A stretch of 64,000 nucleotides of DNA. Source: a virus. The stretch is taken from positions 1 through 64,000 of IMG/VR virus record IMGVR_UViG_3300048592_000244, one strand, 5' to 3'. Under the pieces are notes generated by a model. The model ran no database searches, was not told where the DNA came from, and was given only the letters and a program-made list of their open reading frames with translations. Below are positions 1 through 64,000 of this stretch, one piece after another (the stretch's first letter is position 1; each line of letters starts with the position of its first letter). The position numbers were made by a program, and so were the translations under genes.

Positions 1-20
1 GGGAAAAGCGAGACGACCGC

Positions 21-740
21 GTGAACAAGAAGTATTGGGGGATGCTTCATATCGTCGTCGAGTTCGGGAAGGAGCACGCCGTGAACTTCGGCGAGCACAA
101 TCGGTTCATCTCAGCGTTCGGTGGCATCGTCGGCAAGGCCGGGTTCTACGGCCAGCACCACTACACGGTGATGCAGGGACAGCCTGACGCTCGTGTGGTG
201 TTTTCCGCCACCTTCCGTATGGAAGCAGAACGCCCGAAGGAAATTCCCGACAAGGAGTTCATGCTCTCCGCTCTCGGCGGTGAGGAAGTAATGAAGTCCA
301 CCTTCACCCGGTATGCCGAGCTTGCCGAGGAGTACACCAAGATGTACGAGCACGAGGAGGAGGTGAAGCGGCAGGCCAACAACATCGTCCGTCACTTCAC
401 TGAGGAAGCGTGCGCCGAGGCGAAGAAGGTGGTCCGGTACGAGCAGCGCATGGCGGCGTTGCAGGCTGAGTACGTCGCTGAGGTTGAGGCGGTGGTCAAA
501 GCGAACATGAACGACTGGAAGGCGACTCTGGTGAAGGACAATGACGTCATCACCGAAGCGATCAAGCTGGGCATGGAGCATGTACCGGCGCACGCTGTCG
601 GAGCCGCGAAGAAAACAGGCGTGTTCAGGTCCGGCAATACGGACCCGGTGAAGTACGACGTTGCCACCATTGACGAGTGGCTGGAGGAAAAAGGCCATGT
701 CGATCAAGTTGTCAGTGGGAGTCCAACCGTCGAAGGGTAA
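21..740 (+). CDS. hypothetical protein
   Basis: 239-aa ORF with phage-typical codon usage, GTG start. Confidence 0.7.
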   Translation: MNKKYWGMLHIVVEFGKEHAVNFGEHNRFISAFGGIVGKAGFYGQHHYTVMQGQPDARVVFSATFRMEAERPKEIPDKEFMLSALGGEEVMKSTFTRYAELAEEYTKMYEHEEEVKRQANNIVRHFTEEACAEAKKVVRYEQRMAALQAEYVAEVEAVVKANMNDWKATLVKDNDVITEAIKLGMEHVPAHAVGAAKKTGVFRSGNTDPVKYDVATIDEWLEEKGHVDQVVSGSPTVEG

Positions 741-948: not shown

Positions 949-950
949 CT

Positions 951-1211: not shown

Positions 1212-1213
1212 CC

Positions 1214-2164: not shown

Positions 2165-2175
2165 GGAGTGAACCC

Positions 2176-2898: not shown

Positions 2899-2910
2899 CA
2901 GGAGACCGCT

Positions 2911-7357: not shown

Positions 7358-7753
7358 GTGAAGAAGACGGCGAAGAAAAAGCCCGCTGCCAAGAAGAAGG
7401 CGGCTGCCAAGAAAAAGGCACCCGCCAAGAAGAAGGCACCGGCAAAGAAGTCCGCAGCAAAGAAGAAGCCCGCTCCGAAGAAGTCGGCTGCCAAGAAGAA
7501 GACGGCAGCCAAGAAGACGGGCGGGGCGAAGAAGGAAAATCGCCCGCGCAACATCGAGCCGCACAAGCGTTACCCGGACGTCGAGTCCCTGCCCTACAAG
7601 TGGCAGCCGGGCACGAAGAACAAGCCGGGCAGTCGTGGTCGTCCGCCCACCGGCTGGAAGAAGAACAAGGACGGCGAGTACGTGGCACCGAAGGGCTGGC
7701 GGAAAATCGCTGGCAAGTGGCACAAGCCCGTGGAGAAGGCCAAGCGAAAGTAG
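7358..7753 (+). CDS. Histone H1-like (Lys/Ala/Pro-repeat) DNA-binding protein with AT-hook-like RGRP motif
   Basis: KKxAAKK repeats over about 55 aa, then GSRGRPP (RGRP at 7634-7645); GTG start after GAAGGGAG. Confidence 0.8.
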   Translation: MKKTAKKKPAAKKKAAAKKKAPAKKKAPAKKSAAKKKPAPKKSAAKKKTAAKKTGGAKKENRPRNIEPHKRYPDVESLPYKWQPGTKNKPGSRGRPPTGWKKNKDGEYVAPKGWRKIAGKWHKPVEKAKRK

Positions 7754-7762: not shown

Positions 7763-8329
7763 TTGAGCAAGAGGATGTACGACGCGCTCAAGGACATCGA
7801 CGACATGGGTCTCGTCAGGCTGCGTGAGCAGCACAAGCGTGACCCGCTTTGGTGTGACATGAAATTCGGTTCTTGGCTGGAGGTGCATTGTGCCTTCCGT
7901 GAGGAACGCGGTCATGCCAGAGGCTTTCGCAAGGGAGTGAAGGCTGGGTTGGCGCAGGCCGAAGGGTCTGCGCCGCCCGTCTCCATGAGGACGCTGGCGT
8001 TAGTCTGGAGCGTGATAGTCCCGGCCCTCGCGGTCGTGAACGCTCTGCTGCTATTGCTGGCAATCAGGTTGATTGAGCAGGACTTAGTGATGTGGTTCGC
8101 CCTCGTCATGGTGCTCCTGCCTTTCACAGTTGTGTCGCAGGCAACAGGTACAGGCTTCCTGTTCCAACGGCTCTACAACTGGTGTCTCAAACGACCGGAT
8201 GATGAGCAGGTGATTGTCGTAAAGGTTCCGATGGAATCTGCCGATAAGGAAGACGACGAATACAGCCTGTGGGGAACGGAGCAGATCAACGATGCCATCA
8301 ACGAAGGTACAAGTAGCGACAGCGACTGA
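7763..8329 (+). CDS. membrane protein
   Basis: Two hydrophobic segments (LALVWSVIVPALAVVNALLLLLAI; LVMWFALVMVLLPFTVV). Confidence 0.7.
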   Translation: MSKRMYDALKDIDDMGLVRLREQHKRDPLWCDMKFGSWLEVHCAFREERGHARGFRKGVKAGLAQAEGSAPPVSMRTLALVWSVIVPALAVVNALLLLLAIRLIEQDLVMWFALVMVLLPFTVVSQATGTGFLFQRLYNWCLKRPDDEQVIVVKVPMESADKEDDEYSLWGTEQINDAINEGTSSDSD

Positions 8330-11309
8330 TCTCTGGTCCCAGACAGACATCCAAAAGTCGTGTGAGAAATGCGGCTTGGCAGCAAGGTGTGCAAAGGCCG
8401 CCCCCACCATGTTCCCATCGGTGGGGGCGGACGCGCCCCAGATCATGGTGGTGCTCCCGTACCTTGAAGACTACGACGTAGCCTGCCGCAGAATTTCCCT
8501 CGACACACCGGAGAACCGCGCACTGCACCAGATGGGTGTGAACGTCGGCCTACCGGCTGACTGGTTGCAGTCGATGACACGGGTAGCCGTGGCTGTGAAG
8601 TGCCCCGGCAAGTTCACCAACAAGCAGCAGAAAATCTGCCGCGACTTCCTGCTGGCGGAAATTGCCCACTACCGACCGAAGCTGGTCATCACTGTGGGCA
8701 AGCAGGCAACGCAGGCACTACTTGGCCGCGCTGACGGGATACCGGGGCGCGGTCGTGTGTTCAGACTGGATGAGGAAATTGGCCTTGCTGTGAAGTCCAC
8801 GGACGGAGGGTCTGTTTCCCTGACTGGTTTGCAGGAAATTCGGGTCATGCGTATCCAGAGACCGGGTGTGTGTCTGGACGACCCCGGCTTTATGGAGTAC
8901 CTCCACCATGACTTCACCAAGATACCGCGTGTACTCAACGGCACGTTCGCAGAGAAGACCAGCTTCGAGGGCAGGAACTACCACCTGTGCATGGACTTCG
9001 CCTTCGCCAAGCAGGCGCTTGAGTATTTCATGCAGGTTCCGTCACTCAGCTTTGACATCGAGACTGGCCCCGGCCAGTACGGCTTGGAGCCTTACTCAGC
9101 CAAGAGCAAAATCCTTTGCATCGCGTTTGCTGACCGTCAGCGGAACTCGTATTGCATTCCTCTCGATCACAAGGACAGCCCCCTCCGAGAGCATCTACCG
9201 GAGCTTGTACCACTTATCCGCGACGTCTTGACGCGTAAAGAGTGCGAGATCAATGCCCACAACGGGAAGTTCGATACCCGGTGGGTGAAATTGAAGTACG
9301 GCTTCGACACAGCACTGACCGATGACACGATGATTATGCACGGCGTGCTGGACGAGAACAAAGAGCACGCTCTCAAGACACTGGCTGAACTCGACACTGA
9401 CCTTGGCTACTACGACGACGAACTCCTCGAATGCTTCCGTGACGAGAAGGGGAAATTAGTCAGCAAGTTCAAGCGTGACTACGAGGCGCACGTTCCGCTG
9501 GAAACTCTCATGCGGTATTGCTGCGCCGACGCCGACGCCGCTGAGGTGCTCAAGTGGGTATATAAGGAAAGGCTTGAGCAGCAGTACCTCTGGACGTACT
9601 ACCGCGAACACAAGATGCCGGACCTGCTGGAGACGTCGTACACCGAGCAACACGGCATAGCGTTTGACCGGAAACATCGAGATGAAGTAGAAGCAAAAGC
9701 GAAGACCCGGCTGGCGGAAATTTCCACAGCCATCGCTGACGACCCTTGGCTCCATCATTGGCGTGTGCAGCGATCAGCGGAATATGAGGCCGAAGGCCGG
9801 GTCTTCCTTCATCTCGACACCATCTGGTCGAGCTACCAAGCCTACCTGCGCAATGACACCCCGTTATTTTCCATCGCCCATCAGGCTGACTGGCACAACG
9901 GTGCCAGCACCAAGGCGCTGACGGACAACAAAATCCTGCGCAAGATGAAGGGCAAGCTGGAGCCGTACAAGTCGAAGGTCTACACGCTGGAAGGCGACGA
10001 CGGCATCACGCTGAACATGAACTCGTCGAAGCAGTTGCAGACCTTCTTGTACGACTCGCGGTTCCTCAACCTCAAGGTCACGAAGACGACGAAGAAGGGC
10101 GGGGCACCGGCGACCGACAAGAATTTCCTCAAGCTGCACGAGGATAAATTCCCCGTGCTCAAGAACCTGCTGGCGTACAAGTCAGTCATCAAGTGGAAGT
10201 CCACCTACCTCGATCCGTTCGTCTGCGGCGAATACTACGACGAGGAAAAGAACGAGACCCGCATTGGCTACATCAAGGAAGACGGGCTCATTCACCCGGA
10301 GTACCTGCTCACCGGCAATGACAAGGGCATGGACAAGAAGGGTGACGCACGCGGCACCAAGACCGGCAGAAAATCCTGCATCAACCCGAACATCCAGAAT
10401 CAGAAGAAGCGCGGTGAGGGTGCCAAGGACATCTACAAGTATTTCATCTCCCGCTGGCGTGACGACGGCGGTCTGATTCTACAGGCCGACTTCTCGCAGC
10501 TTGAGTTGCGTGTCTTCGCCGCCATCGCCGGTGTCCGGTGGATGATCGAGAAGTACCAGCAGGGCGCTGACTTGCACACCGAGATGGGCATGGAGGCTTT
10601 CCGCAAGTCGCGGGAAGAAGTCTTGGCCAACGGGAAATTGCTGCGTGCTGCTGCGAAGGAATTGTGGTTCGGCCCGATCTACGGTGAAGGCTGGAAGGCG
10701 ATCAAAGAAGTGCTGGAGCAGAAGCACAAGATCAAGATGACAGACGAGGAAGCCAAGGCGCTCATGGATAGCATGTACGCCAAGATGCCTGAGTACCAGC
10801 AGTACAAGGCAGGCTACGAGCAACTCCTCGACAAACACGCTGCTGTGTGGACTCCGTTCGGTCGCCGCCGCTACCTGCCGATGTGGTTCTCCCGCGAGAA
10901 GTGGATGAAGGCACGCGCCGGTCGTCAGGCTGGTAATTTCATCATCCAGTCCACCGGCTCTGACATGACGTCGTGGGCTTGGGTGATCCTGAACAGGTGG
11001 GCACGCGAGAACGGCGTCCAGTCCAAGCTCATCATCAGCGTGCATGACTCGCTGGTCTGGGACGTGTACCCCGGTGAGCGGGAAATCATCGCAGCCGTGA
11101 CCCGGTACGTGATGGAGCATCTGCCGTTCAGCTTCGTTAGGAACTGGCCGGTGCCGATCCTCGCTGACATCGAGTACGGTGACGCCGGTGGTTCGTGGGG
11201 CGATATGGAGGAAATTGAGCGTGGTGTGATCGACCAGCATGAAGGTCAGATCATCACGCTGCCGCAGTACCAGAGTGTTGTCGCAACGTGTGATAGGATG
11301 ATTGCATGA
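8292..11309 (+). CDS. polA: DNA polymerase family A with N-terminal UDG family-4-like domain and 3'-5' exonuclease
   Basis: Exo motifs SFDIETG, HNGKFD, YCCADAD; TGRKSCINPNIQN; motif A QADFSQLELRV, motif B RAAAKELWFGPIYG, motif C VHDS; N-terminal CxxC...VKCP...C...RPKLVITVG UDG4 fold signature. Confidence 0.95.
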   Translation: MPSTKVQVATATDLWSQTDIQKSCEKCGLAARCAKAAPTMFPSVGADAPQIMVVLPYLEDYDVACRRISLDTPENRALHQMGVNVGLPADWLQSMTRVAVAVKCPGKFTNKQQKICRDFLLAEIAHYRPKLVITVGKQATQALLGRADGIPGRGRVFRLDEEIGLAVKSTDGGSVSLTGLQEIRVMRIQRPGVCLDDPGFMEYLHHDFTKIPRVLNGTFAEKTSFEGRNYHLCMDFAFAKQALEYFMQVPSLSFDIETGPGQYGLEPYSAKSKILCIAFADRQRNSYCIPLDHKDSPLREHLPELVPLIRDVLTRKECEINAHNGKFDTRWVKLKYGFDTALTDDTMIMHGVLDENKEHALKTLAELDTDLGYYDDELLECFRDEKGKLVSKFKRDYEAHVPLETLMRYCCADADAAEVLKWVYKERLEQQYLWTYYREHKMPDLLETSYTEQHGIAFDRKHRDEVEAKAKTRLAEISTAIADDPWLHHWRVQRSAEYEAEGRVFLHLDTIWSSYQAYLRNDTPLFSIAHQADWHNGASTKALTDNKILRKMKGKLEPYKSKVYTLEGDDGITLNMNSSKQLQTFLYDSRFLNLKVTKTTKKGGAPATDKNFLKLHEDKFPVLKNLLAYKSVIKWKSTYLDPFVCGEYYDEEKNETRIGYIKEDGLIHPEYLLTGNDKGMDKKGDARGTKTGRKSCINPNIQNQKKRGEGAKDIYKYFISRWRDDGGLILQADFSQLELRVFAAIAGVRWMIEKYQQGADLHTEMGMEAFRKSREEVLANGKLLRAAAKELWFGPIYGEGWKAIKEVLEQKHKIKMTDEEAKALMDSMYAKMPEYQQYKAGYEQLLDKHAAVWTPFGRRRYLPMWFSREKWMKARAGRQAGNFIIQSTGSDMTSWAWVILNRWARENGVQSKLIISVHDSLVWDVYPGEREIIAAVTRYVMEHLPFSFVRNWPVPILADIEYGDAGGSWGDMEEIERGVIDQHEGQIITLPQYQSVVATCDRMIA

Positions 11310-33431: not shown

Positions 33432-35390
33432 GTGCCAGCCACTCTGGAGCTACCAGAAGCAGTCACGTTAGAATCTATCGCTGAGAGCGACCTCGGCGTA
33501 GACCTTGCTGTATTCGAGGAGAACGCTGCCAAGTTCGGGCAGGAGAGCTTCACGTTCTTCTGCTGGTACTACATGCGGCACCACCTCACCGACGAACTCG
33601 CTGAGTACCATCTCAAGGTCATGCGGTCGTTAGAAGGATTGATGCCGGGCAGGCACCTTGAGCTTCTCCTGCCTCGTGAGCACGGGAAATCCACGCTGGT
33701 TTCTCTCTGCTTCCTGATGTGGAATATCGTCTACAGGAAAAAGCGGCACATCCTCCTCGTGTCGTCCACCTCAGAGAACGCGCAGAAATTCCTTGGCAAG
33801 ATCAATCAGGAATTGCGCAGCAACGAACTTATCCGCAGGGACTTCGGTGACCTAACCGGCTCAGAGAACGTGGGCCGCAAGGAAGTGTGGAAAGCCTCGA
33901 AGCTCAAGACGGCAAACCAAGTGCTCGTCCTTGCTGTGGGTACAAACGGATCAGTACGTGGTGCCAACGAATCGCTGCCGGAAAATCTACAGCTTGATTT
34001 TGTGGAGTACGACCGGCATGGCCGTCCTCGCTACAAGAAGCTGAAATCATTCCGTCCTGATCTGGTTCTGCTGGACGACGTGATCGAGGACAAGTGGGTT
34101 CTCACCAAGCACGTGCGTGACCAGACGTGGAACTGGTTCTGGAAATCTCTCTACAACACGATGGACCGCGACAGGGGAAATTGCGTCGTGGTCGGTACGA
34201 CTCTGCATGACGACGATCTGGTGAGCAGGCTTTTCCGCGACCCCGTGCAGACGATGGCGTGGAAGAAAATCAAGATGCCTGCGTGCGAGGGCTTCGATCA
34301 GACCACGCTCAACCCCATCAACTGTTTGTGGCCTGCGGCGTGGCAAGCACCAGACTTGAACAAGCCAGTCAACCGCAAGGGCGAACTCATTCCGCTGGAT
34401 GAGTTGGACAACTGGCCGCTGGATGATGTGTTCTACCTCAGCAAGCTCTACTGGAAACGAATCGAAATCGGTGAGCGTGCGTTTGCGCAGGAATTCTTGC
34501 TTGACCCGTTGAGCGACAGCTTCCAGTTCTTCAAGCGTCAGTGGTTCAGGTATTTCATCATGCAGGAGAGCTATTTCACCGCAGAGGCGGAACTGGCTCT
34601 CACACGTCTGGGCCACGAGATTGAAGTATTGCCTGACGACCTGATCGTAGTGACAGCCATCGACCCGGCTGGCACGAGACAGGAACAGGTGAAGGAAGGG
34701 GCTGATCCTGATTACACCTGTATCTGCACTGTGGGATATTCACCACGTCATCGCCGGTTCTACATTCTCGACATCTGTCGTGAGCGAATTTCAGCACTAC
34801 GTCAGCAGGAAGTGCTGATGGAGCAGTACAGGAAATTCAGCAGTGAGTTCGCAGCTACTGGCACAGACGGTAGCTCAGACACAGCCAAGTTCAATTTCAC
34901 GCACATGGGCATCTTGGTGGAGAGCGTGGCATACCAGAAGGCGCTGGCTACCATGCTGGATGAAATTGCTCCGGCTCTGGGCATGTACCCTCGCATCGTG
35001 GAAGTCAAACGCGGGCGCAGGGACAAGACCACACGAGCCACAGGCGTGTCTCCTCTGTTCGAGCGCAGAACAGTTGTGTGGCCTGAGCAGTTTGATCTAA
35101 AGTTGAAGAAGCGAGATGTCGAAGAAGCAATGGACGAGCTTGATCGTTTCCCACAGGGCGACCACGATGACTGTGTGGACGCAGTGGTAGACGCTCTGGC
35201 TTTCCTGAACAGAATGAGCCTGAGTCTGAACCGGGGGCTCAATGCGTTGAACGTCATGCGGGCGATGGTGAAATCCTCGCCGGAAATGTACGCCTTCGTG
35301 AGCAAGCGTGAGGATGAGGGCATGGACTTCCAAGACGCCAGTGCCAAGTGGGCGCAGTACAACAGAGAGCACGCTGGGATGACCGCATGA
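33432..35390 (+). CDS. terL: terminase large subunit
   Basis: PREHGKST Walker A, RPDLVLLDD Walker B, VVGT motif III, AIDPA and FPQGDHDDCVDA nuclease motifs. Confidence 0.95.
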   Translation: MPATLELPEAVTLESIAESDLGVDLAVFEENAAKFGQESFTFFCWYYMRHHLTDELAEYHLKVMRSLEGLMPGRHLELLLPREHGKSTLVSLCFLMWNIVYRKKRHILLVSSTSENAQKFLGKINQELRSNELIRRDFGDLTGSENVGRKEVWKASKLKTANQVLVLAVGTNGSVRGANESLPENLQLDFVEYDRHGRPRYKKLKSFRPDLVLLDDVIEDKWVLTKHVRDQTWNWFWKSLYNTMDRDRGNCVVVGTTLHDDDLVSRLFRDPVQTMAWKKIKMPACEGFDQTTLNPINCLWPAAWQAPDLNKPVNRKGELIPLDELDNWPLDDVFYLSKLYWKRIEIGERAFAQEFLLDPLSDSFQFFKRQWFRYFIMQESYFTAEAELALTRLGHEIEVLPDDLIVVTAIDPAGTRQEQVKEGADPDYTCICTVGYSPRHRRFYILDICRERISALRQQEVLMEQYRKFSSEFAATGTDGSSDTAKFNFTHMGILVESVAYQKALATMLDEIAPALGMYPRIVEVKRGRRDKTTRATGVSPLFERRTVVWPEQFDLKLKKRDVEEAMDELDRFPQGDHDDCVDAVVDALAFLNRMSLSLNRGLNALNVMRAMVKSSPEMYAFVSKREDEGMDFQDASAKWAQYNREHAGMTA

Positions 35391-36133: not shown

Positions 36134-36306
36134 CCAGAGACGAACGCATGTCGCTGCTCCTCACCTGCGTGGATTTCTACGCCACCAACAAACAGGGTGA
36201 CTACGGTAGACGAGCGAACGCCGTGCTGGCTAAGATAGCTGACGATGAACGTCAGGAAGGCATGAAAAAGGAACGAGAGAAGGAAAAGGAACGAGGTACA
36301 GAATGA
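36130..36306 (+). CDS. small hypothetical protein (58 aa, not in ORF track)
   Basis: MTRDERMSLLLTCVDFY...; ATGA overlaps at both ends. Confidence 0.55.
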   Translation: MTRDERMSLLLTCVDFYATNKQGDYGRRANAVLAKIADDERQEGMKKEREKEKERGTE

Positions 36307-36746
36307 AGTACGTGATGATTTTCCTGATTGCTCTGCTGGCGTGTGCGTGTGACGCCCAGATCGTCGTGAACGGCAACCCTCCTGATGGCTCGGCGGGGAA
36401 AAGCTATAGCACGACGTTCACAGCCAGCGGCGGCACGGCACCGTACACCTACTTCGTCACCAACCCGCCTGACTTCCTCAGCATGGACACGAACACCGGC
36501 GTGCTGAGTGGGACGCTTCAAGCGCCGGTCATAGGTGACATCTACACGTTCACCGTCACGGCCTTTGACGCCACAATGGCTCATGGTCAGTCGAATTTCA
36601 CCATCACCGTGAGTACGTCCAGTGGTGGAAAATCTGGTAGCGACAACGGCGGCTGCACGGCAGCGCGTGGAACTGGACTGCGTTGGCTGCTGGTAGCAGC
36701 ACTCGGTCTTCTTCTCGTCCGCCAACGGAAGAAGACATGCGGGTAG
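36303..36746 (+). CDS. secreted putative Ig-domain protein with MYXO-CTERM-like C-terminal sorting signal
   Basis: Signal peptide MKYVMIFLIALLACAC; Ig domain PDGSAGKSYSTTFTASGGTAPYTY...TGVLSGT...YTFTVTA; SGGKSGSDNGGC + TM helix + RQRKK. Confidence 0.8.
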   Translation: MKYVMIFLIALLACACDAQIVVNGNPPDGSAGKSYSTTFTASGGTAPYTYFVTNPPDFLSMDTNTGVLSGTLQAPVIGDIYTFTVTAFDATMAHGQSNFTITVSTSSGGKSGSDNGGCTAARGTGLRWLLVAALGLLLVRQRKKTCG

Positions 36747-37084
36747 AATGTACCGATCCGAACTGCTACGGCTTCAAGCGCCCTGTTCTCCCTCTAGGCC
36801 GGGACAGGGCGCTTCACATTCTACGCTGCCATGACGGCGATCAGATCATGCAGGTGGTGGACATCGACCCTGACGGCAGTGTGGGTGAAGCCTGCATTGC
36901 CCGGATGCTGAAATTGATGGATGATCTGGAAGCGATGGGCGGGAAGATGTACTACACCTCAGCCAAGTACCGCAGAGTATTTTCTGCAATGCAGTCCGAG
37001 TGCGAGCATGACATCCAGCAGTTGAGCATCGCTGCCAAGGAGAAAGCATGTGGAAATTCATCCGAGTCTGCTGGGGCCGAATAA
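36737..37084 (+). CDS. hypothetical protein
   Basis: ATG 36737 in frame with ORF 36683. Confidence 0.55.
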   Translation: MRVECTDPNCYGFKRPVLPLGRDRALHILRCHDGDQIMQVVDIDPDGSVGEACIARMLKLMDDLEAMGGKMYYTSAKYRRVFSAMQSECEHDIQQLSIAAKEKACGNSSESAGAE

Positions 37085-37727: not shown

Positions 37728-39959
37728 ATGCCCGGCATCAACCCAACAGGCATCGCCTTCGCTCAGGAACTCCGTGTGGCGTTCCAGTACAGCCGCTTCA
37801 TTGATGAGTTGAGCAAGAGCATCGCCAGCGACGGGACGTACCAGTCCAGCAACAACACCTTCCGTGATCCCACGTACATCGTGAAGGACAAGGAGGGCAA
37901 CATCAAACGGTACTGGCGCTCACCGCAGGATGCAGCCCGACAGGCGAAGTACGAGAAGTACATGCGGATATTGCTGGAGGGCTTGGACTTCCTCAAGCCT
38001 CAGTGGTATCAGGCACGCCAGTACACGGACACCTCGCATCAGGCTGTCTACCAAGGCTACAATTTCCTCACCCTCATCAGTGAGGCATTCGCTGACCTGA
38101 CGTGCGGTGGTGGTGTCGAGATCAAGACCGGCATCGAGTCCATCGACAAGCTGCTGACTGAGCAGCTTCGCTTCGAGGACAAAATCTACGAATGGATTTT
38201 CGAGGCCAGCGTGTTCGAGTTCGTGGGCGTGCAGGTCGTCACCCACGACGATTCCGGTGTGCTGGAAATTCAGCGCGTTCTGCCTCACTTCCTCTATCCG
38301 ATGTTCCCGAAGAACAAGGAGAACGAGCCCGTCTGCATCAGCAAGAAGGTGTGGATGCAGAAGGAGGACATCTCCGAGTGGCAGCAGATCAGGCCGGAGA
38401 ACACCAGCGACAAGATCGACCTCAACGGTGTGAAATTCGATGGCTTCGTGTTCGAGGAGCGTCACTTCAAGGGCATGGTAGAGAACTACCTGTGGGCTGT
38501 GCATGGCAATCAGATCGTCACACGCGTAGACCTGAAATTCTACGACCCGAACCTCGACGCTGTGTCCCTCACTGGCCTGCCTGACTTCGCAATCAAGCTG
38601 ATCCCCAACAAGGTGATGGTGGGGAAATTCATCAGCGATTGGGACAACATCATCGACATCAACCTGAACTTCAATGACCGCGCAAGCCGTGCAGGCGACC
38701 TGTTGAACCAGTACGCCGAGCCTCAGCTTGTCATCAACGACAGTCAGGCGACCTACGACCCGGCTACGGGCAAGGTCCATTACCGGCGTCCTCGTGGTGG
38801 CGTGATAATGATGCGCCCGCAGGACAGGCACCAGCCGAATTTCATGCAGCCGGGTGTGGACACAGCAGGCACGGAGAACAACCTCAAGTTCCTGCTCGAC
38901 ATGCTGTCCACTCACTCACAGGCTGCTGCTGTGCTGCTGAACCCAGAGGCACAGGGCAACATCGAGAGCGGTGTGGCCTACAAGCTGAAATTGACGCCCA
39001 CGCTCAAGAAGATCGCACGCAGGAAGACTCAGCAGGAAATTGCCGTGAAGGGCCTGATCCTGAACATCCTCGCGGCCATCAACTTCTACCACGACAAGGA
39101 ACTCATCACCCGTGAGTTGGAGGAGCGCGTCAACTCGTCAGACGACATGACCATGCGTACCCGCTGTGAGGATGCACTGGCCAAGATCAATCAGGGCTCG
39201 GTACTGATCTCGCTGGAGTCGTTCGACGACTATTTCTCCAAGCTGGATGTGTTCAACGACAACCCCTACGGCATTTTCATCAGCGACCCTGCACAGGCGA
39301 CCACCGGCGACCAGTTGCAGTACCTCGCTGACGGAGACCTGCTGACGGCCATCGAGAACAAGCGCACTGAGGTGATGGAATATCTCCGGCTGGATGACAT
39401 CCAAGTCGAGATGACTCCTTCCATGCCGCAGGATATTGCGCAGGCTCTTGAGCGCCTTGGTGGCCAGAAGTCCATGAGCCTGAAACGCTACCTCATGGAA
39501 TTCGACGGCTTCACTGAGGAGCAAGCCGAGGAGGAAATTCAGCGCATCATGGACGAGGACCGTGAGGTGATGGCTCAGGGCATCAGCGATTCATCCGTCA
39601 TGCTCAACCCGCGTGGTGGGTTGCAGCAGGCCATCCTCGACTTCGGTCAGACCGATCACCAGCATGAAGTGTTGCTGGACGCAGAGGGCAACGGAATTTC
39701 CGAGCGTGCTCCTGATGGCCACAACCACCGGGTACTCAACGGGCAGGCGCTCATGGAAATGGGCCACACTCACCCTGTGGTTTTCCAGCAGGAGCAGAAC
39801 ACACAGCCTGAGCCGATGATGGCCGGGGCTGGCATGGCACCAAGCAATCAGAACGTCGGAGCCGCAGGAATGAGCCCCGGCGCACCCAGCCAGACTAACC
39901 TACAGAGCACAGCGATAGCTGCTGGCACGACTCCTCAACCCGTTGGTGGGTTCAGGTAG
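37728..39959 (+). CDS. portal protein (SPP1-like) with His-rich and low-complexity C-terminal extension
   Basis: 743 aa downstream of terL; ESGVAYKLKL portal motif; EEAEEEIQRI-type C-terminal helix. Confidence 0.85.
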   Translation: MPGINPTGIAFAQELRVAFQYSRFIDELSKSIASDGTYQSSNNTFRDPTYIVKDKEGNIKRYWRSPQDAARQAKYEKYMRILLEGLDFLKPQWYQARQYTDTSHQAVYQGYNFLTLISEAFADLTCGGGVEIKTGIESIDKLLTEQLRFEDKIYEWIFEASVFEFVGVQVVTHDDSGVLEIQRVLPHFLYPMFPKNKENEPVCISKKVWMQKEDISEWQQIRPENTSDKIDLNGVKFDGFVFEERHFKGMVENYLWAVHGNQIVTRVDLKFYDPNLDAVSLTGLPDFAIKLIPNKVMVGKFISDWDNIIDINLNFNDRASRAGDLLNQYAEPQLVINDSQATYDPATGKVHYRRPRGGVIMMRPQDRHQPNFMQPGVDTAGTENNLKFLLDMLSTHSQAAAVLLNPEAQGNIESGVAYKLKLTPTLKKIARRKTQQEIAVKGLILNILAAINFYHDKELITRELEERVNSSDDMTMRTRCEDALAKINQGSVLISLESFDDYFSKLDVFNDNPYGIFISDPAQATTGDQLQYLADGDLLTAIENKRTEVMEYLRLDDIQVEMTPSMPQDIAQALERLGGQKSMSLKRYLMEFDGFTEEQAEEEIQRIMDEDREVMAQGISDSSVMLNPRGGLQQAILDFGQTDHQHEVLLDAEGNGISERAPDGHNHRVLNGQALMEMGHTHPVVFQQEQNTQPEPMMAGAGMAPSNQNVGAAGMSPGAPSQTNLQSTAIAAGTTPQPVGGFR

Positions 39960-41539: not shown

Positions 41540-41692
41540 ATGCCGCTGCAATCTGGTAAATCCAAAGAGGCCATCAAGAACAACATCAGGAAACTGATGC
41601 ACGAGGGCTACCCGCAGAAGCAAGCGATAGCCATAGCTTTCAGCAACGCGGGGTTATCCCGCAAGAAGGACGGCAAGAAGAAGAAGGACTGA
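41540..41692 (+). CDS. small basic conserved phage protein (50 aa, not in ORF track)
   Basis: MPLQSGKSKEAIKNNIRKLMHEGYPQKQAIAIAFS..., matching the widespread MPLxxGKS...QAxAIA phage family. Confidence 0.8.
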   Translation: MPLQSGKSKEAIKNNIRKLMHEGYPQKQAIAIAFSNAGLSRKKDGKKKKD

Positions 41693-45012: not shown

Positions 45013-45549
45013 ATGATGAAACGACTGGCACTGTTGCTCCTGCTGTTCCTCGCGGGATGCACGATACCTCTTTACGAGTCAAGAGACCGCGTGGGCATTG
45101 ACTTGTGGGGCTCGCCCACCGTCACTGAGGACAGCTACGAATTCCAGATGAAATTCGACTCGCCTACTGATGATCCTTACCTCATCCAGTGGATCGACGT
45201 AGGTCCGTACCACGGGGTGGAAGCATTCCGTGTGGTCGAGCCCTACAAGAGTCAGGTGGACACGCACTCAGTCAGCGAGACCAATTTCCAGCACAGGCGC
45301 ATCACCATCGCGCCGGGTGACATCGAAGGCGCTGATGAGACCTTCTGGGGGTTCTCCATGCTGCCCTCGCAGTGGCCTGACAACTTCAACGCGACCTACC
45401 GAGCCAACCACAACATTCAGGGCAGGGTCGTCTACCGCAAGCCTGAGCATGAGACTGTCTACTACCTGCACTTCGAGAACGGCGTCCTGACGTGGTGGAT
45501 AGAAGGCCACGAGGATGAAAAGCGGGAGTGGCGGGCAGAGGGAAAGTAG
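45013..45549 (+). CDS. lipoprotein
   Basis: MMKRLALLLLLFLAGC lipobox; GGGAG RBS. Confidence 0.75.
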   Translation: MMKRLALLLLLFLAGCTIPLYESRDRVGIDLWGSPTVTEDSYEFQMKFDSPTDDPYLIQWIDVGPYHGVEAFRVVEPYKSQVDTHSVSETNFQHRRITIAPGDIEGADETFWGFSMLPSQWPDNFNATYRANHNIQGRVVYRKPEHETVYYLHFENGVLTWWIEGHEDEKREWRAEGK

Positions 45550-48196: not shown

Positions 48197-49198
48197 ATGC
48201 CCGGCGTAGCAGGCTTCAATTTCGCTGACGCCGCCGTCATGGTGAAAGAGGAGTTCGAGTCCACGTTCTACCGGACTTTCGTCCGCAACAACGTGTTCAT
48301 GGAACTGCTCAACCCCACTCGTGAGGAGTACGTCGAAAAGGACATCCGCTGGAAGCTCTACTACAGCGGAAACCCTGCGGCGGGCTCGTACAGCGAGGAC
48401 GGCGACATTGGCATCAACCGCACCGACCTTGGTGAGCGTTTCACCACGGCCCAGCTTGACTGGAAGCTGAACGGTGTGCCGATCAAAGTGAGCGGTCTGG
48501 CGCAGGCCATCACCCAGAGCCCCAAGGCGATCATCGACGCCGTGGGGGAAAACACCGAGCAGGCCCTCAAGCAGTTGCAGGCGAACATGAACCTGCAACT
48601 CCTGAGCGACGGCGCTGGCAACCTGAACGGCGTCAACCCGGCCCTCAACGCCGGTCTTGACATCACCGGAATTCAGGCGGCCATCGACGACGGTGGTGAC
48701 GTAGCGATCTACGGTGGCATCGACCGCACCGTGGACGTCTACTGGCAGAGCTTCGTGCTCCGCAATCCACTGGCCCCCGGCACCCCGCGCCCGCTGACCG
48801 AAGCACTGATGCACCAAGTGATGAACGAGCTTCGTCAGGTGCGTCAGGGCCGCGTCACGCACATCCTGTGCAGCCCGAACGTCTTCACGCAGTACGGTCT
48901 CCTGCTTCAAGGCGACCGTCGCTACCCGCTTACGGGCGGTGGCGCGAACCGCTATGTCGGCGGTTTCGAGGCGTTGAAGTTCGACGACGTTGCACTGGTG
49001 AGCGTTCCTCTCTACGAGGAAGGCCGCATGGACTTCGTGGACATGGACCTGTTGAAGTACAAGATTCTCTTGGACTTCACCATTTCCCCGCGTGACGCAG
49101 GCATCCGCGATGCCAACGTCATGCACGCGAAGACCTACAGCCAGTTCCAGTGCAAGAACAGCTTCGTCATGGGAAGCATCCGCGACCTGATCGTCTAG
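48197..49198 (+). CDS. major capsid protein (HK97 fold)
   Basis: 333 aa after scaffold; LLSDGAGN...ITGIQAAI...YGGIDRT...YW pattern; strongly biased codons; terminator follows. Confidence 0.9.
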   Translation: MPGVAGFNFADAAVMVKEEFESTFYRTFVRNNVFMELLNPTREEYVEKDIRWKLYYSGNPAAGSYSEDGDIGINRTDLGERFTTAQLDWKLNGVPIKVSGLAQAITQSPKAIIDAVGENTEQALKQLQANMNLQLLSDGAGNLNGVNPALNAGLDITGIQAAIDDGGDVAIYGGIDRTVDVYWQSFVLRNPLAPGTPRPLTEALMHQVMNELRQVRQGRVTHILCSPNVFTQYGLLLQGDRRYPLTGGGANRYVGGFEALKFDDVALVSVPLYEEGRMDFVDMDLLKYKILLDFTISPRDAGIRDANVMHAKTYSQFQCKNSFVMGSIRDLIV

Positions 49199-54419: not shown

Positions 54420-55655
54420 ATGCCACAGATCGGTCGTTCGGTGGTGAGCCCTTTCAACCCGCAGAACCTCGTGCTGCCGTCACGAATTTCTGTGTGGTTC
54501 GCGCCTTTCGACGCGCAGGGCCGCCAGTCCGACTACTTCGAGCTTGGCGATGTCTCGGACATTGAAATCAACATCGCTGAAACCTTTGCTGAAAAGAAGT
54601 CAGCGCGACAGGGCACCTTCCAGACCATCAAGCGCCTCATCAACGACCTCGTTGGCGAGATCACGATGAACCTCTCGGAAGTCGTCGGTCGCAACCTCGA
54701 ACTTCTTTTCCGCCCAGCCCAAGTCCTCCTCCGCGACGGCGTAGCAAACGCTCTCAGTGTGTGGCACGAGAGCACTCGTCCTCGCCTGACCGGAACCACA
54801 CCGTCCGACGTAGCACCCGGCATCGCGCAGGAGCGCGTTGACGGCGGCGCGTTGAACGAGCAGGACTTGACCATCCTGAGCGTCACGAACCTCGCGGGCA
54901 ACGTCCAGTACATTTCCGGCACGGACTACACGTTCGTGCAGGCAGTGACTGGCGTGTTCGACTCGGCCACGCTGACGTTCGCCACGTTCACCACGGCAGT
55001 CGGTGACGAAATCATCCTCACCGAAGACGACGGCACCATCACGACTCTGACGGCAGGTACGGAGTTCGAGGATGGCGCAACCGCAGGTTCAGTAGGTGCT
55101 CTGGCGGCGGGAGTGGCGGAAGCCATCAACGCTTACAGCAGCAGCTACCACGCCACGGCGGCTGCTGGCGTCGTCACGATCAACCACAACAGCCTCAGTG
55201 CGGCGGCCCCGGCTGCCATCACTGTGACTGGCGCGGCCCTGATCGTGGACGTCGGTGCAGGCCCGTTTGCCTTCGCTGGCTTCGTCGCCACGGTCCCGGC
55301 CACCATCGCACGCATCAGCACCGGAGCCATTCCGAACGGTGCCGAAGTGAAGGTGACGTTCACCTTCGAGCGTGCAGCGGTCGAGTACCAGTTGCAGTCG
55401 GGGCAGGTCTTGGAGGGAGCGATGAAGCTCCAGATTCTCTCCACGTCCGGCCCGCAGGGGTTCTACGAGTTCTACCGCGTGAACCTCGAAATCGGCGGCA
55501 ACATCACCGTCAACCCGCAGGAATTTATGATGGCCCCTCTCAAGGCCACCATTCTGACGGGCGGCGACGGACGCCGAGGCCGCTTCGTGCAGGCGTGCAA
55601 CTTCGCTGACTTCTTCGTGCAGTCCAGCGTCACGACCTGCTCGGCAGTTGCGTAA
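54420..55655 (+). CDS. major tail tube protein with inserted beta-rich domain
   Basis: YFELGDVSDIEINI...GEITMNLSE..NLEL tail-tube N-region; Thr/Ala-rich insert; upstream of chaperone and TMP. Confidence 0.8.
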   Translation: MPQIGRSVVSPFNPQNLVLPSRISVWFAPFDAQGRQSDYFELGDVSDIEINIAETFAEKKSARQGTFQTIKRLINDLVGEITMNLSEVVGRNLELLFRPAQVLLRDGVANALSVWHESTRPRLTGTTPSDVAPGIAQERVDGGALNEQDLTILSVTNLAGNVQYISGTDYTFVQAVTGVFDSATLTFATFTTAVGDEIILTEDDGTITTLTAGTEFEDGATAGSVGALAAGVAEAINAYSSSYHATAAAGVVTINHNSLSAAAPAAITVTGAALIVDVGAGPFAFAGFVATVPATIARISTGAIPNGAEVKVTFTFERAAVEYQLQSGQVLEGAMKLQILSTSGPQGFYEFYRVNLEIGGNITVNPQEFMMAPLKATILTGGDGRRGRFVQACNFADFFVQSSVTTCSAVA

Positions 55656-62800: not shown

Positions 62801-64000
62801 CCTCCAAGTTCACCGGCGTGATGTCGCAGATCGAACAGACCATCGAGCGCATCAAGATCATCGTGTTCGAGGAACTCGCGCCGGTACTCAACGACGCGCT
62901 GGAGACGTTCGGCAAGGACAGCCGCACGCAGATCGACTTCATTCTGGAGAACGTCCGCACAGCCGTCCGCATCGTCATCAACACGATCATGCTCGTGGCG
63001 GATTTCATCAACAAGCGGTACATCCAAGCAGGCAACGGCGCGGAGCAGTTGTTCGCGGACATTGTGGTGGCCGGACGCATCGCATGGAATGCTATCGGCG
63101 ATCTGCTCGGCATTGCGATGGAGCATGGCGTGCGTCTGGCTGGCGCTGTCCTCGATGCAGCGTGGAATTCACTTGAAGGAAAAAGCAAGAGCAAGCTGTT
63201 TGGGGTGTTAGTTTGGTTTGGTGGTTTGCTAGGAAAAGCAGGCGCGTCCATCATTGCTTTGGTAGGTGCTACTTTTGAAAGTGCTCTTGTCGTAGGCGGA
63301 AATTGGGTCGATGAAGTCAAGATCATTGCCTTGAAATTAGGGGCATGGCTGTTGGAGCAGTCCGAAGGGCTCATCAATAAAATCGGCGGTGGTGTCTTCG
63401 ACGTCATCAATGCAGTTCGTGCGTTCTTCGGCGAAGAAGCCCTCGATATACCGGGGCTAGATAAGTTGGTTCAGGGGCGTCTTGCGATAGAGAAGTCCAT
63501 CGCCTCTATCGCGGCTGAAAACGCGAAGGAAAATAAAAAGTCCCTATCGTTTGCAGAGCAGTTCTCCAAGATTTTTGGAGACATTAGTAAGAAGGTAGAC
63601 GAGGGCGGCGCGTCTTTACAAAAGATGTTCGATACTTCGCTCGCTACAGACGAAGTAAACGCGTTTCTTGAAAGCATCGAAGGAGCAAGCGATGAAGCAG
63701 AACGTCTTAGTGGCGTAATCGACCGCCTGAATAAAGATGGCACGCTAGATTTCGCCCTCTCCGGTGAGGAAAGTGTTGAACGTCTGCGCAGTGTGCTTGT
63801 TGATTTTGCTGAACGGGGCATCATCCCACCGGGTGCTGTTTCGGAAGGCACAGAACGTCTGCGTAAAGAAGCCATCAAGGCGCTGGGCGACGTCGCCGAC
63901 GAAACTGGTCAGGCACTCAAGACGGCGTTCGAGGTTGGCTTTGACAAGCTGGCAGATGAATTTCCCGAAGTCGTCGAACTGCTCAAGCAGATCGGCATTG
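56869..64000 (+). CDS. tape measure protein (partial, >2370 aa, runs off window)
   Basis: MALSVGEVAVDFVANLDDLFK start; Ala/Leu-rich helical sequence with hydrophobic and coiled-coil blocks; absent from ORF track because no stop occurs in the window. Confidence 0.9.
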   Translation, partial: MALSVGEVAVDFVANLDDLFKSLEKLGEKLDEALSGKQEIKVSFDERIIAQIDKMADGVEKISNLTERVRTVAEGVFDSLDGRIGNTSEQIEKSFGGAVKNIEGQTDDFITTFINKVTKGVSRLSPLVLGQLFGATLLIERLVAGGFKLTSILPKFLVSGTGAVGIMQGLVQAVKTLNFPFLLGFLVDVSQSLLSVTTVVALLTTGLRGLTGLALRFLGKRPESQVQKFVVLLETLNAGLTDMLAKTRIFIERMFFITSGLTSIAGLLTILGTGVTGLTAVVSPFLAAVFVGISGIRLAAARVSDMLLRFRASAGDGRAQTTLFLRALRSLFPILDAIARNAKPIAKMINEFAKGGFAKRMKQVIGEFQKALSGISRIEDAINRLAATMEKTSKQVMKQMGQFISKADELFKKIGRQGARDALASIERVRSSATSATKEVQQSVAQIAPAADKAEKSATRLGARLVEMGKRTLGLIGRTGVAGTGSLLGLMLFGTSGNIAPFLAPLAQFRDRLLGGFSEVSKGARQVGDTVAESFGSGAAVEAATGFLDAMFSTLGGLLDVGVELSKKFWGVFVDPATLTSAFAFAGQTVAGLAPLLATGAGAVLTPLVLRGVKNLTVASAGVIRDAASGVWPVVRKSLVEPVKDFLLFLPRQTKRFATQTVPDMVNRLTARVFKGTVAVGERVKQFFGLAELTEEQANEKAIAAIQERTAGMREQRSALKEQLNLLQRSKDFGEDEVARRAKLKQVEDQLTTARSKAAELERKLKGDLTVDPEGAKKKLAATREEIKRLAQEASTLDAPFTEVQQRIIEAETQLRSLTDALSKELSQEAIEKLTADIKANSRPIRSAIANVGIDAGKSFASGMKAATSLVRAVLVSPFSSAATKRNIQAAASNLSKSFRSAFSAAFRIGGGILGLIPGLKGIGERLKARAGTTAGLTAGTPEEEAAKRKAAADVKAAKAQDELTQVLRAEKVVAEAAIRQKELEKAASELQINNQMLMSGQLEKTENVMREMTGSFLGLANLAGRLEETTNETATSARLLSKNLRAADFQPAIDLARQIDQSMPSLQDMRSQFERLADAVGMDVKTREAARAQLDAAEDKITSVLGERAEALVKLTGSDSLQIEAAQKELKALEAKAASDLGTVQDQEAVVAQRVKVAKMVQAAETKLIQELKDAEEAVNVNSAAFAKWTKEIDKQQAIIDTSGKSSKAGKEAQEKLTRAMENRQKVAATAENELTKRVDEVQQVMLASRAALNKLPNAVKDFAATFNRITNVEGVQTLASLAAQEAAGEELRIFTDQYANSLKEQAAEIELQQQVLKEEEAAARALLKEKRSSAVIQKELDAALKLSTIREEQLAVAAKGAQLAMEDIKVAEEETADAATKHEKALQQGTSATKEMSTQALRVAGALEKAKLAIDEGGQSMKELAVAADETATGTGTAKPPRSGARIGQGQTGQLADLAAVLLSGATAKDIEKAPLTPIRERMKNAPEVQAIQALVGTEDALERVLAILNQITQQPVQRLKKLSDGFSNLLTLLKRLEASPERLEKFTQQFSGEVIGDMSRMVGLMDKMVANVKKLKVPGGAGARGQLKGFESFALRTQAQLMQKAMEGAIDWSTVIERWMAALRAEFPNVKIDLSAGQQVLATELELAARNALKQVMGRLSARGNQGEKLVAMIFDGARAAKSKAGKAGEEVADEFAANFPQSMPRRGPLREMLTKLPMLGQMIGQRMLAGIGVLKELTSQFMRQGFEGFLPAAFNMGASVAEKFFGGLGSGLNKIGDALRKIPVIGILGEIPLKVAGFIAKGLGVITAGIAKMAAQVSGAVTNLVKETSTKLLKLGLDATRLRLDPNNLQRFNEAMGILGGSASDAEAGLQQLTQSIEQVARGSAPELEAAFADAGLSMQDLSKLGSDEIFLRIAKAANEATGDIRKQSDLLRLIGADFSSLRGVVLSGSEAIADAFTRANKNPPISQKTLELASKFTGVMSQIEQTIERIKIIVFEELAPVLNDALETFGKDSRTQIDFILENVRTAVRIVINTIMLVADFINKRYIQAGNGAEQLFADIVVAGRIAWNAIGDLLGIAMEHGVRLAGAVLDAAWNSLEGKSKSKLFGVLVWFGGLLGKAGASIIALVGATFESALVVGGNWVDEVKIIALKLGAWLLEQSEGLINKIGGGVFDVINAVRAFFGEEALDIPGLDKLVQGRLAIEKSIASIAAENAKENKKSLSFAEQFSKIFGDISKKVDEGGASLQKMFDTSLATDEVNAFLESIEGASDEAERLSGVIDRLNKDGTLDFALSGEESVERLRSVLVDFAERGIIPPGAVSEGTERLRKEAIKALGDVADETGQALKTAFEVGFDKLADEFPEVVELLKQIGI

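What the first reader, a model, noticed from the sequence alone, without database searches (positions are those of the whole stretch)
1..64000. Genome-wide, frame-independent enrichment of a GAAATT/AATTTC (often GGAAATT) motif
Seen: by eye about 30 copies of GAAATT or its reverse complement in the first 10.2 kb (e.g. 240, 1414, 1630, 2036, 2709, 3004, 3554, 4126, 5435, 8658, 8775, 8835, and GGAAATTTCC near 9716). It continues to the end of the window, with variants GGAAAAT and GGAATT. A rough base-composition expectation at about 59% GC is only around 2 per 10 kb. It occurs in both orientations and in different frames (GAA ATT, AAA TTG, AAT TTC, GGA ATT TCC), using AAA/TTG/ATT/AAT codons the phage otherwise disfavours. 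Inference: selection acts on the DNA, creating a dispersed binding or structural signal (narrow minor groove A/T tract) inside coding sequence. It could be a mark read by a phage protein for compaction, protection or packaging, or a host-derived signature.
Basis: partly seen in the sequence, partly recalled or inferred. Interest (0 to 1): 0.85.

Follow-up and report, generated by a model that had tools for sequence, protein, structure and literature searches.

The report
Dispersed GGA+AT-tract word in phage
A 106-kb phage genome carries the short DNA word GGA followed by four A/T bases about every 235 bases, in every reading frame, on both strands and between genes, so it is a signal in the DNA itself, most plausibly a docking site for the phage's own AT-hook protein, though binding is untested.

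Summary
GAAATT/AATTTC occurs 166 times in the window (about 15 expected from composition) and 267 times in the 106,113-bp genome.

It beats every null I ran:
- synonymous-codon shuffle: 78
- dinucleotide-preserving shuffle: 102
- the same shuffle also barred from making the genome's absent words: 125 +/- 7 (z = 21)
- a dicodon Markov expectation: still 1.7-2.1x

The real unit is GG plus exactly five A/T bases, starting with A (GGAWWWW). There are 453 copies against 171 expected.
- It is enriched in all three frames, in both orientations and in non-coding DNA.
- Every A/T spelling is enriched. Spellings without a TpA step are enriched most.
- A/T runs of five without a GG flank are not enriched.
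- Copies avoid lying within 50 bp of each other.
- There is no 10-11 bp periodicity.

Two distant relatives and 151 sampled Planctomycetota genomes lack the enrichment.

This site class matches the published preference of RGR-type AT-hook binders. The phage encodes an H1-like protein with a conserved RGRPP core (7358-7753). Reading by that protein is my best explanation at about 0.4. It is inferred, not shown.

The genome also lacks 48 of the 64 six-base palindromes, yet modelling that purge does not explain the word.

Earlier notes of this scan report hyperabundant words in other phages.

The parts
1..64000 (.). Field of dispersed GGAWWWW sites: 172 on the + strand and 96 on the - strand in the window. 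These include 105 GAAATT and 61 AATTTC. There are 13-22 sites per 4 kb almost everywhere.
   Evidence: The window count is 268 against 101.7 +/- 6.2 under the dinucleotide plus forbidden-word null.
239..247 (+). Example site GGAAATTCC, with a GG flank on both strands.
   Evidence: GG-W5-CC runs are 3.8x enriched.
9716..9725 (.). GGAAATTTCC: two overlapping sites, one on each strand, inside the DNA polymerase gene.
7358..7753 (+). Gene for a 131-aa protein with N-terminal KKxAAKK (histone H1-like) repeats and a conserved C-terminal domain. It is the candidate reader of the sites. The start is taken at GTG 7358 because the close homologue P0027 begins MKKTAKKK.
   Evidence: (weak Hc2 histone-like match).
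7631..7648 (+). Codons for SRGRPP, the AT-hook-type core. In the 19-sequence family alignment P-G, G-R-P-P and the following G are invariant; the Arg before GRPP is the majority residue and is Pro in P0033.
48197..49198 (+). The most conserved structural gene (74-76% identical to the two distant relatives; probably the major capsid protein). It holds no GGAWWWW site, so the word yields where protein and codon constraint is strongest.

Best explanation
GGA followed by four A/T bases (an A/T run of exactly five, bounded by G/C) is a selected, dispersed feature of the double-stranded DNA. About 450 copies are written into silent codon positions and into spacers.

The most likely way it works is as a set of minor-groove docking sites for an RGR-type AT-hook protein. 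The best candidate is the phage's own H1-like/AT-hook protein, gp7358-7753. That protein would then coat, organise or mark phage DNA preferentially over the host's G+C-rich DNA.

Shown: DNA-level enrichment, the anatomy of the site, short-range spacing, and the presence of a conserved RGRPP domain.

Inferred: that this protein, or any protein, binds the sites, and what binding achieves.
For: 1. The pressure is on DNA. There is 1.7- to 18-fold excess in all three frames and both orientations. Sense and antisense excess are similar. The excess is the same in non-coding DNA, with a flat control word. It survives the synonymous, dinucleotide, forbidden-word and dicodon nulls.

2. The anatomy fits minor-groove or shape readout.
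- All A/T spellings after GGA are enriched 2-3.3x.
- Spellings without TpA are enriched 2.73x, those with TpA 1.57x.
- The optimum is sharp. GG-flanked runs of five are 2.6x, of six 1.9x and of four 1.1x. Runs of five with no GG on either flank are 1.06x.
- Versions interrupted by G or C are depleted (GGAAGTT 0.27).

3. Duan et al. 2021 (PMC8476142) report that RGR-type binders (Lsr2, HMGA1) prefer AATT and A-tracts, do best on 5-6 contiguous A/T flanked by G/C, dislike TpA, and are hindered by A-tracts of 7-8. That is the same class.

4. The phage encodes a protein with H1-like repeats and a GRPP core (RGRPP in most members) in a domain family of 22 detectable members. The close phage-type homologues keep both parts.

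5. No homologue of that protein was found by tblastn in the two distant relatives. Neither has an RGRP in a called gene's frame with K-rich repeats, and both lack the enrichment: 8 and 11 GGAAATT against 157.

6. Sites repel each other. There are 9 neighbour gaps of 8-25 bp against 27 expected, and 31 gaps of 8-50 bp against 60 (P < 0.0005). Counts per 1 kb are under-dispersed (variance/mean 0.66). That is expected for sites each occupied by a bulky ligand or selected for coverage.
Against: - No binding data exist.
- The requirement for GGA on the 5' side is not explained by what is known of AT-hooks.
- The correlation with the protein rests on one contrast (this genome against relative G002). 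G001 is only 82% complete and lacks the region.
- Planctomycetota genomes that carry the domain, fused to another N-terminal part, show no enrichment.
- The repulsion of sites could also come from selection against clusters of rare codons.
- When only coding sites are compared with a random choice among the 2,206 synonymously possible sites, under-dispersion at 250 bp-1 kb bins is only marginal (P 0.05-0.09) and absent at 2-4 kb bins (P 0.66, 0.44).
Confidence: 0.4

Rival explanations
1. Mutation or repair drive. A context-dependent polymerase error or a short-patch repair activity converts near-cognate sequences into GG+W5, with no function for the word. This is the kind of mechanism proposed for the highly iterated palindromes of cyanobacteria.
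For: - The effect is strand-symmetric and genome-wide, and present in coding and non-coding DNA alike.
- The gene under strongest constraint lacks the word, as expected of a weak pressure.
- Dipeptides that can spell the word are only slightly raised over the relatives (EI 1.35 vs 1.19/1.13; FP 1.12 vs 0.76/0.78).
- The phage has its own polymerase and recombination/repair genes.
Against: - A sharp optimum at five A/T with a GGA flank, equal enrichment of all A/T spellings, and repulsion of neighbouring sites are not what a simple mutational bias gives.
- One-substitution neighbours are not depleted as a set (971 vs 864).
- No enzyme with such a specificity is known to me.
Confidence: 0.2
2. 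By-product of word avoidance. The genome bans so many words (48 six-base palindromes, TTAA, CCWGG, CAAAT, TpA-rich words) that the remaining 'safe' A/T-containing spellings pile up.
For: - CAAAT/ATTTG is absent, which forces G before AAAT and C after ATTT.
- Adding the 78 absent words to the null raises the expected GAAATT count from 102 to 125.
- Other avoided words not in my list exist (AGAAAG 3 vs 40; CCACCC 2 vs 56; several interrupted palindromes).
Against: - With all absent words of 4-6 bases forbidden and dinucleotides kept, the word is still 2.1x (GAAATT) to 3.3x (GGAAATT) over expectation, z 21-32.
- Relatives that purge 12 and 22 palindromes, one of them also TTAA, show no such enrichment.
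- A Planctomycetota genome sample with 30 palindromes absent has no GG-specific peak.
Confidence: 0.15
3. A host factor or host signature. The word is common in the true host's chromosome, or it is a site for a host nucleoid protein that the phage exploits.
For: - The phage shares TpA (0.47), TTAA (about 0) and CTAG depletion with Planctomycetota loci, so some of its word usage is host-like.
- Some Planctomycetota reach about 100-120 GGAAATTC per Mb, which may be a few-fold above composition.
Against: - The maximum in 151 sampled genomes is about 120 per Mb, against 754 per Mb in the phage.
- In the five genomes sampled in detail, CGAWWWW is enriched about as much as or more than GGAWWWW, and there is no isolated peak at five A/T like the phage's; two have their maximum at five, but barely above four and six.
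- The host is not identified, so this is a sample, not a test of the host.
Confidence: 0.15
4. A recombination or replication signal read on single strands: a Chi-like word for the host's RecBCD/AddAB, or a recognition word for the phage primase.
For: - Density is one per few hundred bases on both strands, and spacing is fairly even.
- The phage has a Toprim primase and a T4-like recombination set.
Against: - Both orientations are enriched equally relative to their nulls, with no polarity along the genome.
- The A/T positions are degenerate, unlike base-specific single-strand words.
- Seven positions is long for a primase site.
Confidence: 0.07

Closest known systems
Binding sites of RGR-type AT-hook and AT-hook-like proteins (HMGA1 on AAATT of the PRDII element; Lsr2), as summarised in PMC8476142
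   Same: 5-6 contiguous A/T bounded by G/C; AATT and A-tract spellings best; TpA disfavoured; longer tracts not better. A protein with an RGRP core is encoded in the same genome.
   Different: Here the sites number about 450 and sit inside genes of a phage. A GGA 5' flank is required. No binding has been measured. Lsr2-type binders silence foreign DNA, whereas here the phage enriches the sites.
Genome-wide over-represented oligomers: Chi, FtsK KOPS, uptake sequences (USS/DUS), HIP1 of cyanobacteria
   Same: A short word far above expectation, held in silent codon positions and spacers across a whole genome.
   Different: This word is not polar (unlike Chi and KOPS), not a palindrome (unlike HIP1), degenerate at four positions, and found in a phage but not in the sampled candidate host phylum.
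Hyperabundant words noted earlier in this scan in other phages (AGTACT in a jumbo coliphage that purged other palindromes; RCAGGACTC; ATATT; GTTTAAAC; CGCG)
   Same: A phage-specific, frame-independent excess of one short word. In the AGTACT case it also sits beside a purge of palindromes.
   Different: The word is different and degenerate, of the minor-groove type. Here there is a named candidate reader. Those notes are unchecked AI reports on unrelated genomes.
Phased A-tracts (intrinsic DNA curvature)
   Same: A-tract sequences of the AnTm type without TpA.
   Different: There is no 10-11 bp periodicity. Tracts are hundreds of bases apart.

Membership tests
AT-hook (RGR) minor-groove site class | Run of 4-6 contiguous A/T bounded by G/C | tested here: met
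   Only five A/T (2.6x) and six (1.9x) are enriched next to GG. Four is 1.1x. Overall, runs of 3-4 are depleted and runs of 6 or more are as expected.
AT-hook (RGR) minor-groove site class | A/T identity largely interchangeable; AATT/A-tract preferred; TpA disfavoured | tested here: met
   All spellings after GGA are 2-3.3x. TpA-free spellings are 2.73x and TpA-containing ones 1.57x. The published preference is in PMC8476142.
AT-hook (RGR) minor-groove site class | A protein with an RGR(P) core available to read it | tested here: met
   SRGRPP at window 7631-7648. In the 19-sequence family alignment G39 R40 P41 P42 (GRPP) and G44 are invariant; the preceding Arg is the majority residue, Pro in P0033.
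AT-hook (RGR) minor-groove site class | Measured binding of that protein to the sites | not testable with these tools
   Needs EMSA, DAP-seq or ChIP-seq.
Chi-like or KOPS-like polar words | Strong strand polarity relative to replication or DNA ends | tested here: not met
   For GGAAAWW, sense is 4.4x and antisense 4.1x over null. There is no positional switch of orientation beyond gene strand.
Chi-like or KOPS-like polar words | Base-specific word | tested here: not met
   Four positions accept A or T with similar enrichment.
Highly iterated palindromes (HIP1-like) | The over-represented word is a palindrome | tested here: not met
   GGAAATT is asymmetric. GGAATTCC is 2 vs 2.2. GGAAATTCC is 22 vs 5.9 (3.8x), no more than two half-effects would give.
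Highly iterated palindromes (HIP1-like) | Cognate DNA methyltransferase in the genome | tested here: inconclusive
   No methyltransferase turned up among about 60 proteins scanned with Pfam, PHROGs and NCBIfam. Many small proteins were not scanned.
By-product of restriction-site avoidance | The excess disappears when avoided words are forbidden in the null | tested here: not met
   GAAATT 267 vs 125 +/- 7; GGAAATT 157 vs 47.5.
Host genomic signature | Equal density in the host chromosome | tested here: inconclusive
   Not found in 151 sampled Planctomycetota (maximum about 120 per Mb against 754 per Mb). The host is unknown.
Phased A-tract curvature | 10-11 bp periodicity | tested here: not met
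   Relative spectral power is 0.88-1.00 at periods of 9.5-12 bp.

The most novel reading that the evidence does not exclude
The phage writes about 450 GGA+W4 minor-groove sites into its genome as a self-mark. Its own H1-like/AT-hook protein reads them to build a phage-specific chromatin that organises or shields the DNA. This would happen in a host lineage armed with so many restriction systems that the phage has also purged three quarters of all six-base palindromes.
Probability: 0.3. Interest if true: 0.85.

Novelty: new variant of a known kind. Interest (0 to 1): 0.62.

Why it matters
Genome-wide functional words such as Chi, KOPS, uptake sequences and HIP1 are known mainly from cellular chromosomes. 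For phages there are few described cases.

Here the word has a clear physical character (a narrow-minor-groove tract of fixed length with a GG flank). A candidate reader is encoded in the same genome. That makes a direct experiment possible: one small protein and a handful of oligonucleotides.

If the protein reads the sites, this would be a phage that marks its own DNA by sequence rather than by chemical modification.

The accompanying purge of 48 of 64 six-base palindromes is among the most extreme cases of restriction-site avoidance I know of. It shows how much silent-site freedom this genome spends on DNA-level constraints.

Tried and rejected
- Dispersed repeat. Aligning all 267 GAAATT sites shows no information outside positions -1 to +6. 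These are independent short words.
- 10-11 bp or longer periodicity: none.
- Palindrome GGAAWTTCC as the unit. The full 9-mer is no more enriched than the half-site effect predicts.
- By-product of avoidance, codon usage, dinucleotides or dicodons: rejected by the nulls.
- General clustering of A/T. A4T2 and A5T are depleted (AAAATT 14 vs 35). A/T runs of five with no GG on either flank are flat.
- Shine-Dalgarno confusion. The ribosome-binding site is AGGAG at -11 to -7 and is not this word.
- Close relatives' DNA. Positional conservation could therefore not be tested.
- Other phages carrying the AT-hook domain: none in IMG/VR.
- CRISPR-spacer-like matches of 20 kb of the phage to 401 Planctomycetota genomes gave only chance-level or low-complexity hits.
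- The AlphaFold model of the domain (pLDDT 77) had no match among solved folds. The ESM Atlas look-up was uninformative.
Full report
**What the window is**

The window is the first 64 kb of a single 106,113-bp virus record with 57.7% G+C.

It encodes a family-A-type DNA polymerase (8292-11309), a large terminase (33432-35390), a portal (37728-39959), a major tail protein with an Ig-like domain (54420-55655) and a tape-measure-sized ORF that runs off the window.

Outside the window lie a sigma-region-2 protein, SbcCD-like and RecA/UvsX-like proteins, a DnaB-like helicase and a Toprim primase. ThyX and a MazG-like protein are in the window.

Nothing similar is in the GenBank phage collection. 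Most proteins have no Pfam family.

**The observation**

GAAATT plus AATTTC number 166 in the window against about 15 from base composition, and 267 in the genome. They are the top hexamers of the genome by any measure.

**Is it more than codon usage?**

I called 136 genes with a codon model and ran amino-acid-preserving shuffles. Genome-wide, the 267 observed copies compare with:
- 78 +/- 7 for a synonymous shuffle
- 102 +/- 7 for a shuffle that also keeps every dinucleotide
- 125 +/- 7 when the shuffle may not create any of the 78 words of 4-6 bases that the genome lacks (z = 21)

The chains were mixed and obeyed the constraint.

GGAAATT is 157 against 47.5 (z = 32). Codon pairs show the cooperativity directly: GAA-ATT 67 against 16.8, AAT-TTC 47 against 13.9, AAA-TTC 49 against 17.2.

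Because all frames of the 7-mer span three codons, I computed a dicodon Markov expectation. The word still stands at 1.7-2.1x in each frame and each orientation.

Under the strictest shuffle, all six frame-by-orientation classes are enriched 1.7- to 18-fold.

In non-coding DNA, where no codon argument applies, GGAWWWW is 27 against 7.5 in segments of at most 400 bp, and GGAAATT is 9 against 0.8. The control CGAWWWW is 6 against 6.4.

The pressure is therefore on the DNA.

**What the unit is**

A scan of all degenerate 8-mers puts GGAWWWW(S) at the top, at 453 against 171.
- A/T runs of exactly five are in excess (590 against 414). Runs of three and four are depleted. Runs of six or more are as expected.
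- The excess belongs to runs with GG on the 5' side: 395 against 152. Runs of five without GG on either side are flat at 208 against 196. Runs with GG on both sides are 3.8x.
- After GGA, every A/T spelling is raised: AATT 3.3x, AAAT 2.9x, ATTT 2.4x, AAAA 2.5x, TATT 3.3x, AATA 2.5x. TpA-free spellings together are 2.73x and TpA-containing ones 1.57x. GGT-initiated runs are mostly not raised (0.46-1.4x; GGTAATT is 2.2x).
- Versions broken by a G or C are depleted (GGAAGTT 0.27, GGAACTT 0.59). So are CGAAA (0.57) and AAAATT (0.40).
- Flanks beyond these positions carry no information.
- The near-palindrome GGAAWTTCC noted by other first readers of this genome is real (22 against 5.9). It is no more than two half-sites.

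**Distribution**

Sites are spread over the whole genome at 13-22 per 4 kb, apart from 7 at 44-48 kb and 10 in the final, partial 2.1-kb window. There is no polarity beyond gene strand and no 10-11 bp periodicity.

Counts per kb are under-dispersed, with variance/mean 0.66 against 1.08 in the null.

Of 2,206 positions where the word could be spelt synonymously, 386 (17.5%) carry it. Compared with random choices among those positions, neighbours 8-25 bp apart are three times too rare (9 against 27), and neighbours 8-50 bp apart twice too rare (31 against 60; P < 0.0005). Under-dispersion at 250 bp-1 kb bins is then only marginal (P 0.05-0.09) and absent at 2-4 kb bins (P 0.66, 0.44).

The most conserved structural gene (48197-49198) has none, and the major tail gene has one. 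Dipeptides that can spell the word are slightly commoner than in the relatives' proteomes.

**The other constraint on this genome**

Of the 64 six-base palindromes, 48 are absent from all 106 kb (expected 10-60 copies each). Only GACGTC, TGGCCA, GAATTC, TGCGCA, ACGCGT and AAATTT are at ordinary levels.

The avoidance is exact. For example, NCCGGN has zero copies in each of the four palindromic contexts and 24-110 in the others.

Also absent:
- short or degenerate words: TTAA (one copy), CCWGG, CAAAT/ATTTG, RGATCY, CTGAAG, GAAGAG, GAGCTG, ACTGGG
- interrupted palindromes: CCCNGGG, CCGNCGG, GGGNCCC, GCTNAGC, TCCNGGA, GACN3GTC, GATN4ATC, CCTN5AGG, CCAN6TGG

AGAAAG (3 against 40) and CCACCC (2 against 56) are nearly gone.

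This is why the forbidden-word null was needed. It explains only a small part of the enrichment (expected count 102 rising to 125).

**Relatives and host**

The portal has relatives at 75-87% identity on 106-107 kb contigs.

Two distant relatives were fetched whole. Their portals are 47% and 43% identical, and 33 and 42 of the 136 proteins are shared.
- They lack 12 and 22 six-base palindromes. One lacks CCWGG and the other TTAA. The lineage as a whole evades restriction by site loss, each member with its own list.
- They hold 8 and 11 GGAAATT against 157 here, and GGAWWWW is not above CGAWWWW in either.

The word is therefore specific to this sub-lineage and does not simply follow from palindrome purging.

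Cellular homologues of the AT-hook domain lie in two Planctomycetota MAGs. Those loci share the phage's TpA (0.45), TTAA (about 0) and CTAG depletion. A surface protein of the phage has weak matches to MYXO-CTERM tails, which points elsewhere.

I take Planctomycetota as a tentative host phylum only. In 151 sampled genomes of that phylum, GGAAATTC reaches at most about 120 per Mb against 754 per Mb in the phage. In five sampled in detail, GGAWWWW is not favoured over CGAWWWW and five A/T is not an isolated peak as in the phage (two have their maximum at five, barely above four and six). One of them lacks 30 palindromes in 43 kb.

**The candidate reader**

The gene at 7358-7753 encodes KKxAAKK repeats followed by a 76-aa domain that contains SRGRPP.

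A search of 1.84 billion representatives found 22 relatives of the domain. Invariant residues include H14, P18, V20 of a PHPxxPDV block, W27, P-G, G-R-P-P and the following G; the Arg before GRPP is the majority residue (Pro in P0033). The two closest relatives (86% and 75% identical) keep the lysine-rich repeats.

The two distant relatives have lysine-rich ORFs, but no detectable homologue and no RGRP in such a protein.

The model of the domain is a small beta structure (pLDDT 77) with no match among solved folds.

Duan et al. 2021 (PMC8476142) summarise binding data for RGR-type AT-hook(-like) proteins. These prefer AATT and A-tracts, do best on 5-6 contiguous A/T flanked by G/C, dislike TpA, and are hindered by tracts of 7-8. 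The enriched class here matches that description point by point, except for the GGA flank.

**Verdict**

The enrichment is real. It acts at the DNA level, it is specific to this phage sub-lineage as far as could be sampled, and it is not a by-product of codon usage or of the palindrome purge.

The best-supported mechanism is a dispersed set of minor-groove sites read by an RGR-type protein, probably the phage's own (confidence about 0.4). Binding and purpose are inferred.

The rivals remain open: a mutation or repair drive (0.2), a residual avoidance effect (0.15), a host factor or signature (0.15), and a single-strand recombination or priming word (0.07).

Earlier notes of this scan describe hyperabundant words in other, unrelated phages. 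This is one more case of that kind, with an unusually well-defined physical character.

Noticed in passing
window 1-64000 and the whole genome (G000:C1:1-106113): 48 of the 64 six-base palindromes have no copy in 106 kb (50 are absent from the window). Also absent are TTAA (one copy in the genome), CCWGG, CAAAT/ATTTG, RGATCY, CTGAAG, GAAGAG, GAGCTG and ACTGGG. Only GACGTC, TGGCCA, GAATTC, TGCGCA, ACGCGT and AAATTT are at ordinary levels. This is an extreme case of restriction-site avoidance. No methyltransferase was found among the proteins scanned.
   Followed up: partly
whole genome; in the window AGAAAG/CTTTCT at 37041, 47890, 48001 and CCACCC/GGGTGG at 45215, 46718: Near-absent non-palindromic words (AGAAAG 3 vs 40; CCACCC 2 vs 56). 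Absent interrupted palindromes: CCCNGGG, CCGNCGG, GGGNCCC, GCTNAGC, TCCNGGA, GACN3GTC, GATN4ATC, CCTN5AGG, CCAN6TGG. These are possible footprints of further restriction specificities, some of which I cannot match to a known enzyme.
   Followed up: no
G001 (IMGVR_UViG_3300017992_000021) and G002 (IMGVR_UViG_3300017991_000075), loci L007-L015: Distant relatives of the phage each purge a different list of sites. G001 lacks 12 palindromes plus CCWGG. G002 lacks 22 palindromes plus TTAA. Avoidance is a lineage habit with member-specific targets.
   Followed up: partly
L019, L020, L021-L040 (Planctomycetota genomes G003, G004, G007, G013, G043, G148): Several Planctomycetota genomes show very low TTAA and CTAG and TpA near 0.45. 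One (G043) lacks 30 six-base palindromes in 43 kb and nearly all CCWGG and CTAG. This fits a phylum rich in restriction systems.
   Followed up: no
L019:10001-10912 and proteins P0030-P0046: The RGRPP domain also occurs at the C-terminal side of proteins of about 300 aa in Planctomycetota. Their N-terminal parts look, by eye, like ribbon-helix-helix DNA binders. No Pfam family covers any part. This is an undescribed DNA-binding domain family.
   Followed up: partly
window 36303-36746: A small secreted protein with a He_PIG-like Ig motif and a C-terminal GGC / hydrophobic helix / RQRKK tail. It has only weak NCBIfam matches to MYXO-CTERM-anchored families (E about 0.004). Short DNA matches to several Planctomycetota genomes fall in the Ig motif.
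   Followed up: partly
genome 78447-92146 (L016, L017): A T4-like replication and recombination block: a protein with sigma region 2 only, an SbcC-like ATPase with an SbcD-like phosphoesterase, a RecA/UvsX-like protein, an SF2 helicase, a DnaB-like helicase and a Toprim primase.
   Followed up: partly
window 41540-41692: A 50-aa ORF conserved in both distant relatives. It ends in a Lys-rich tail whose DNA gives spurious short matches to many genomes.
   Followed up: no
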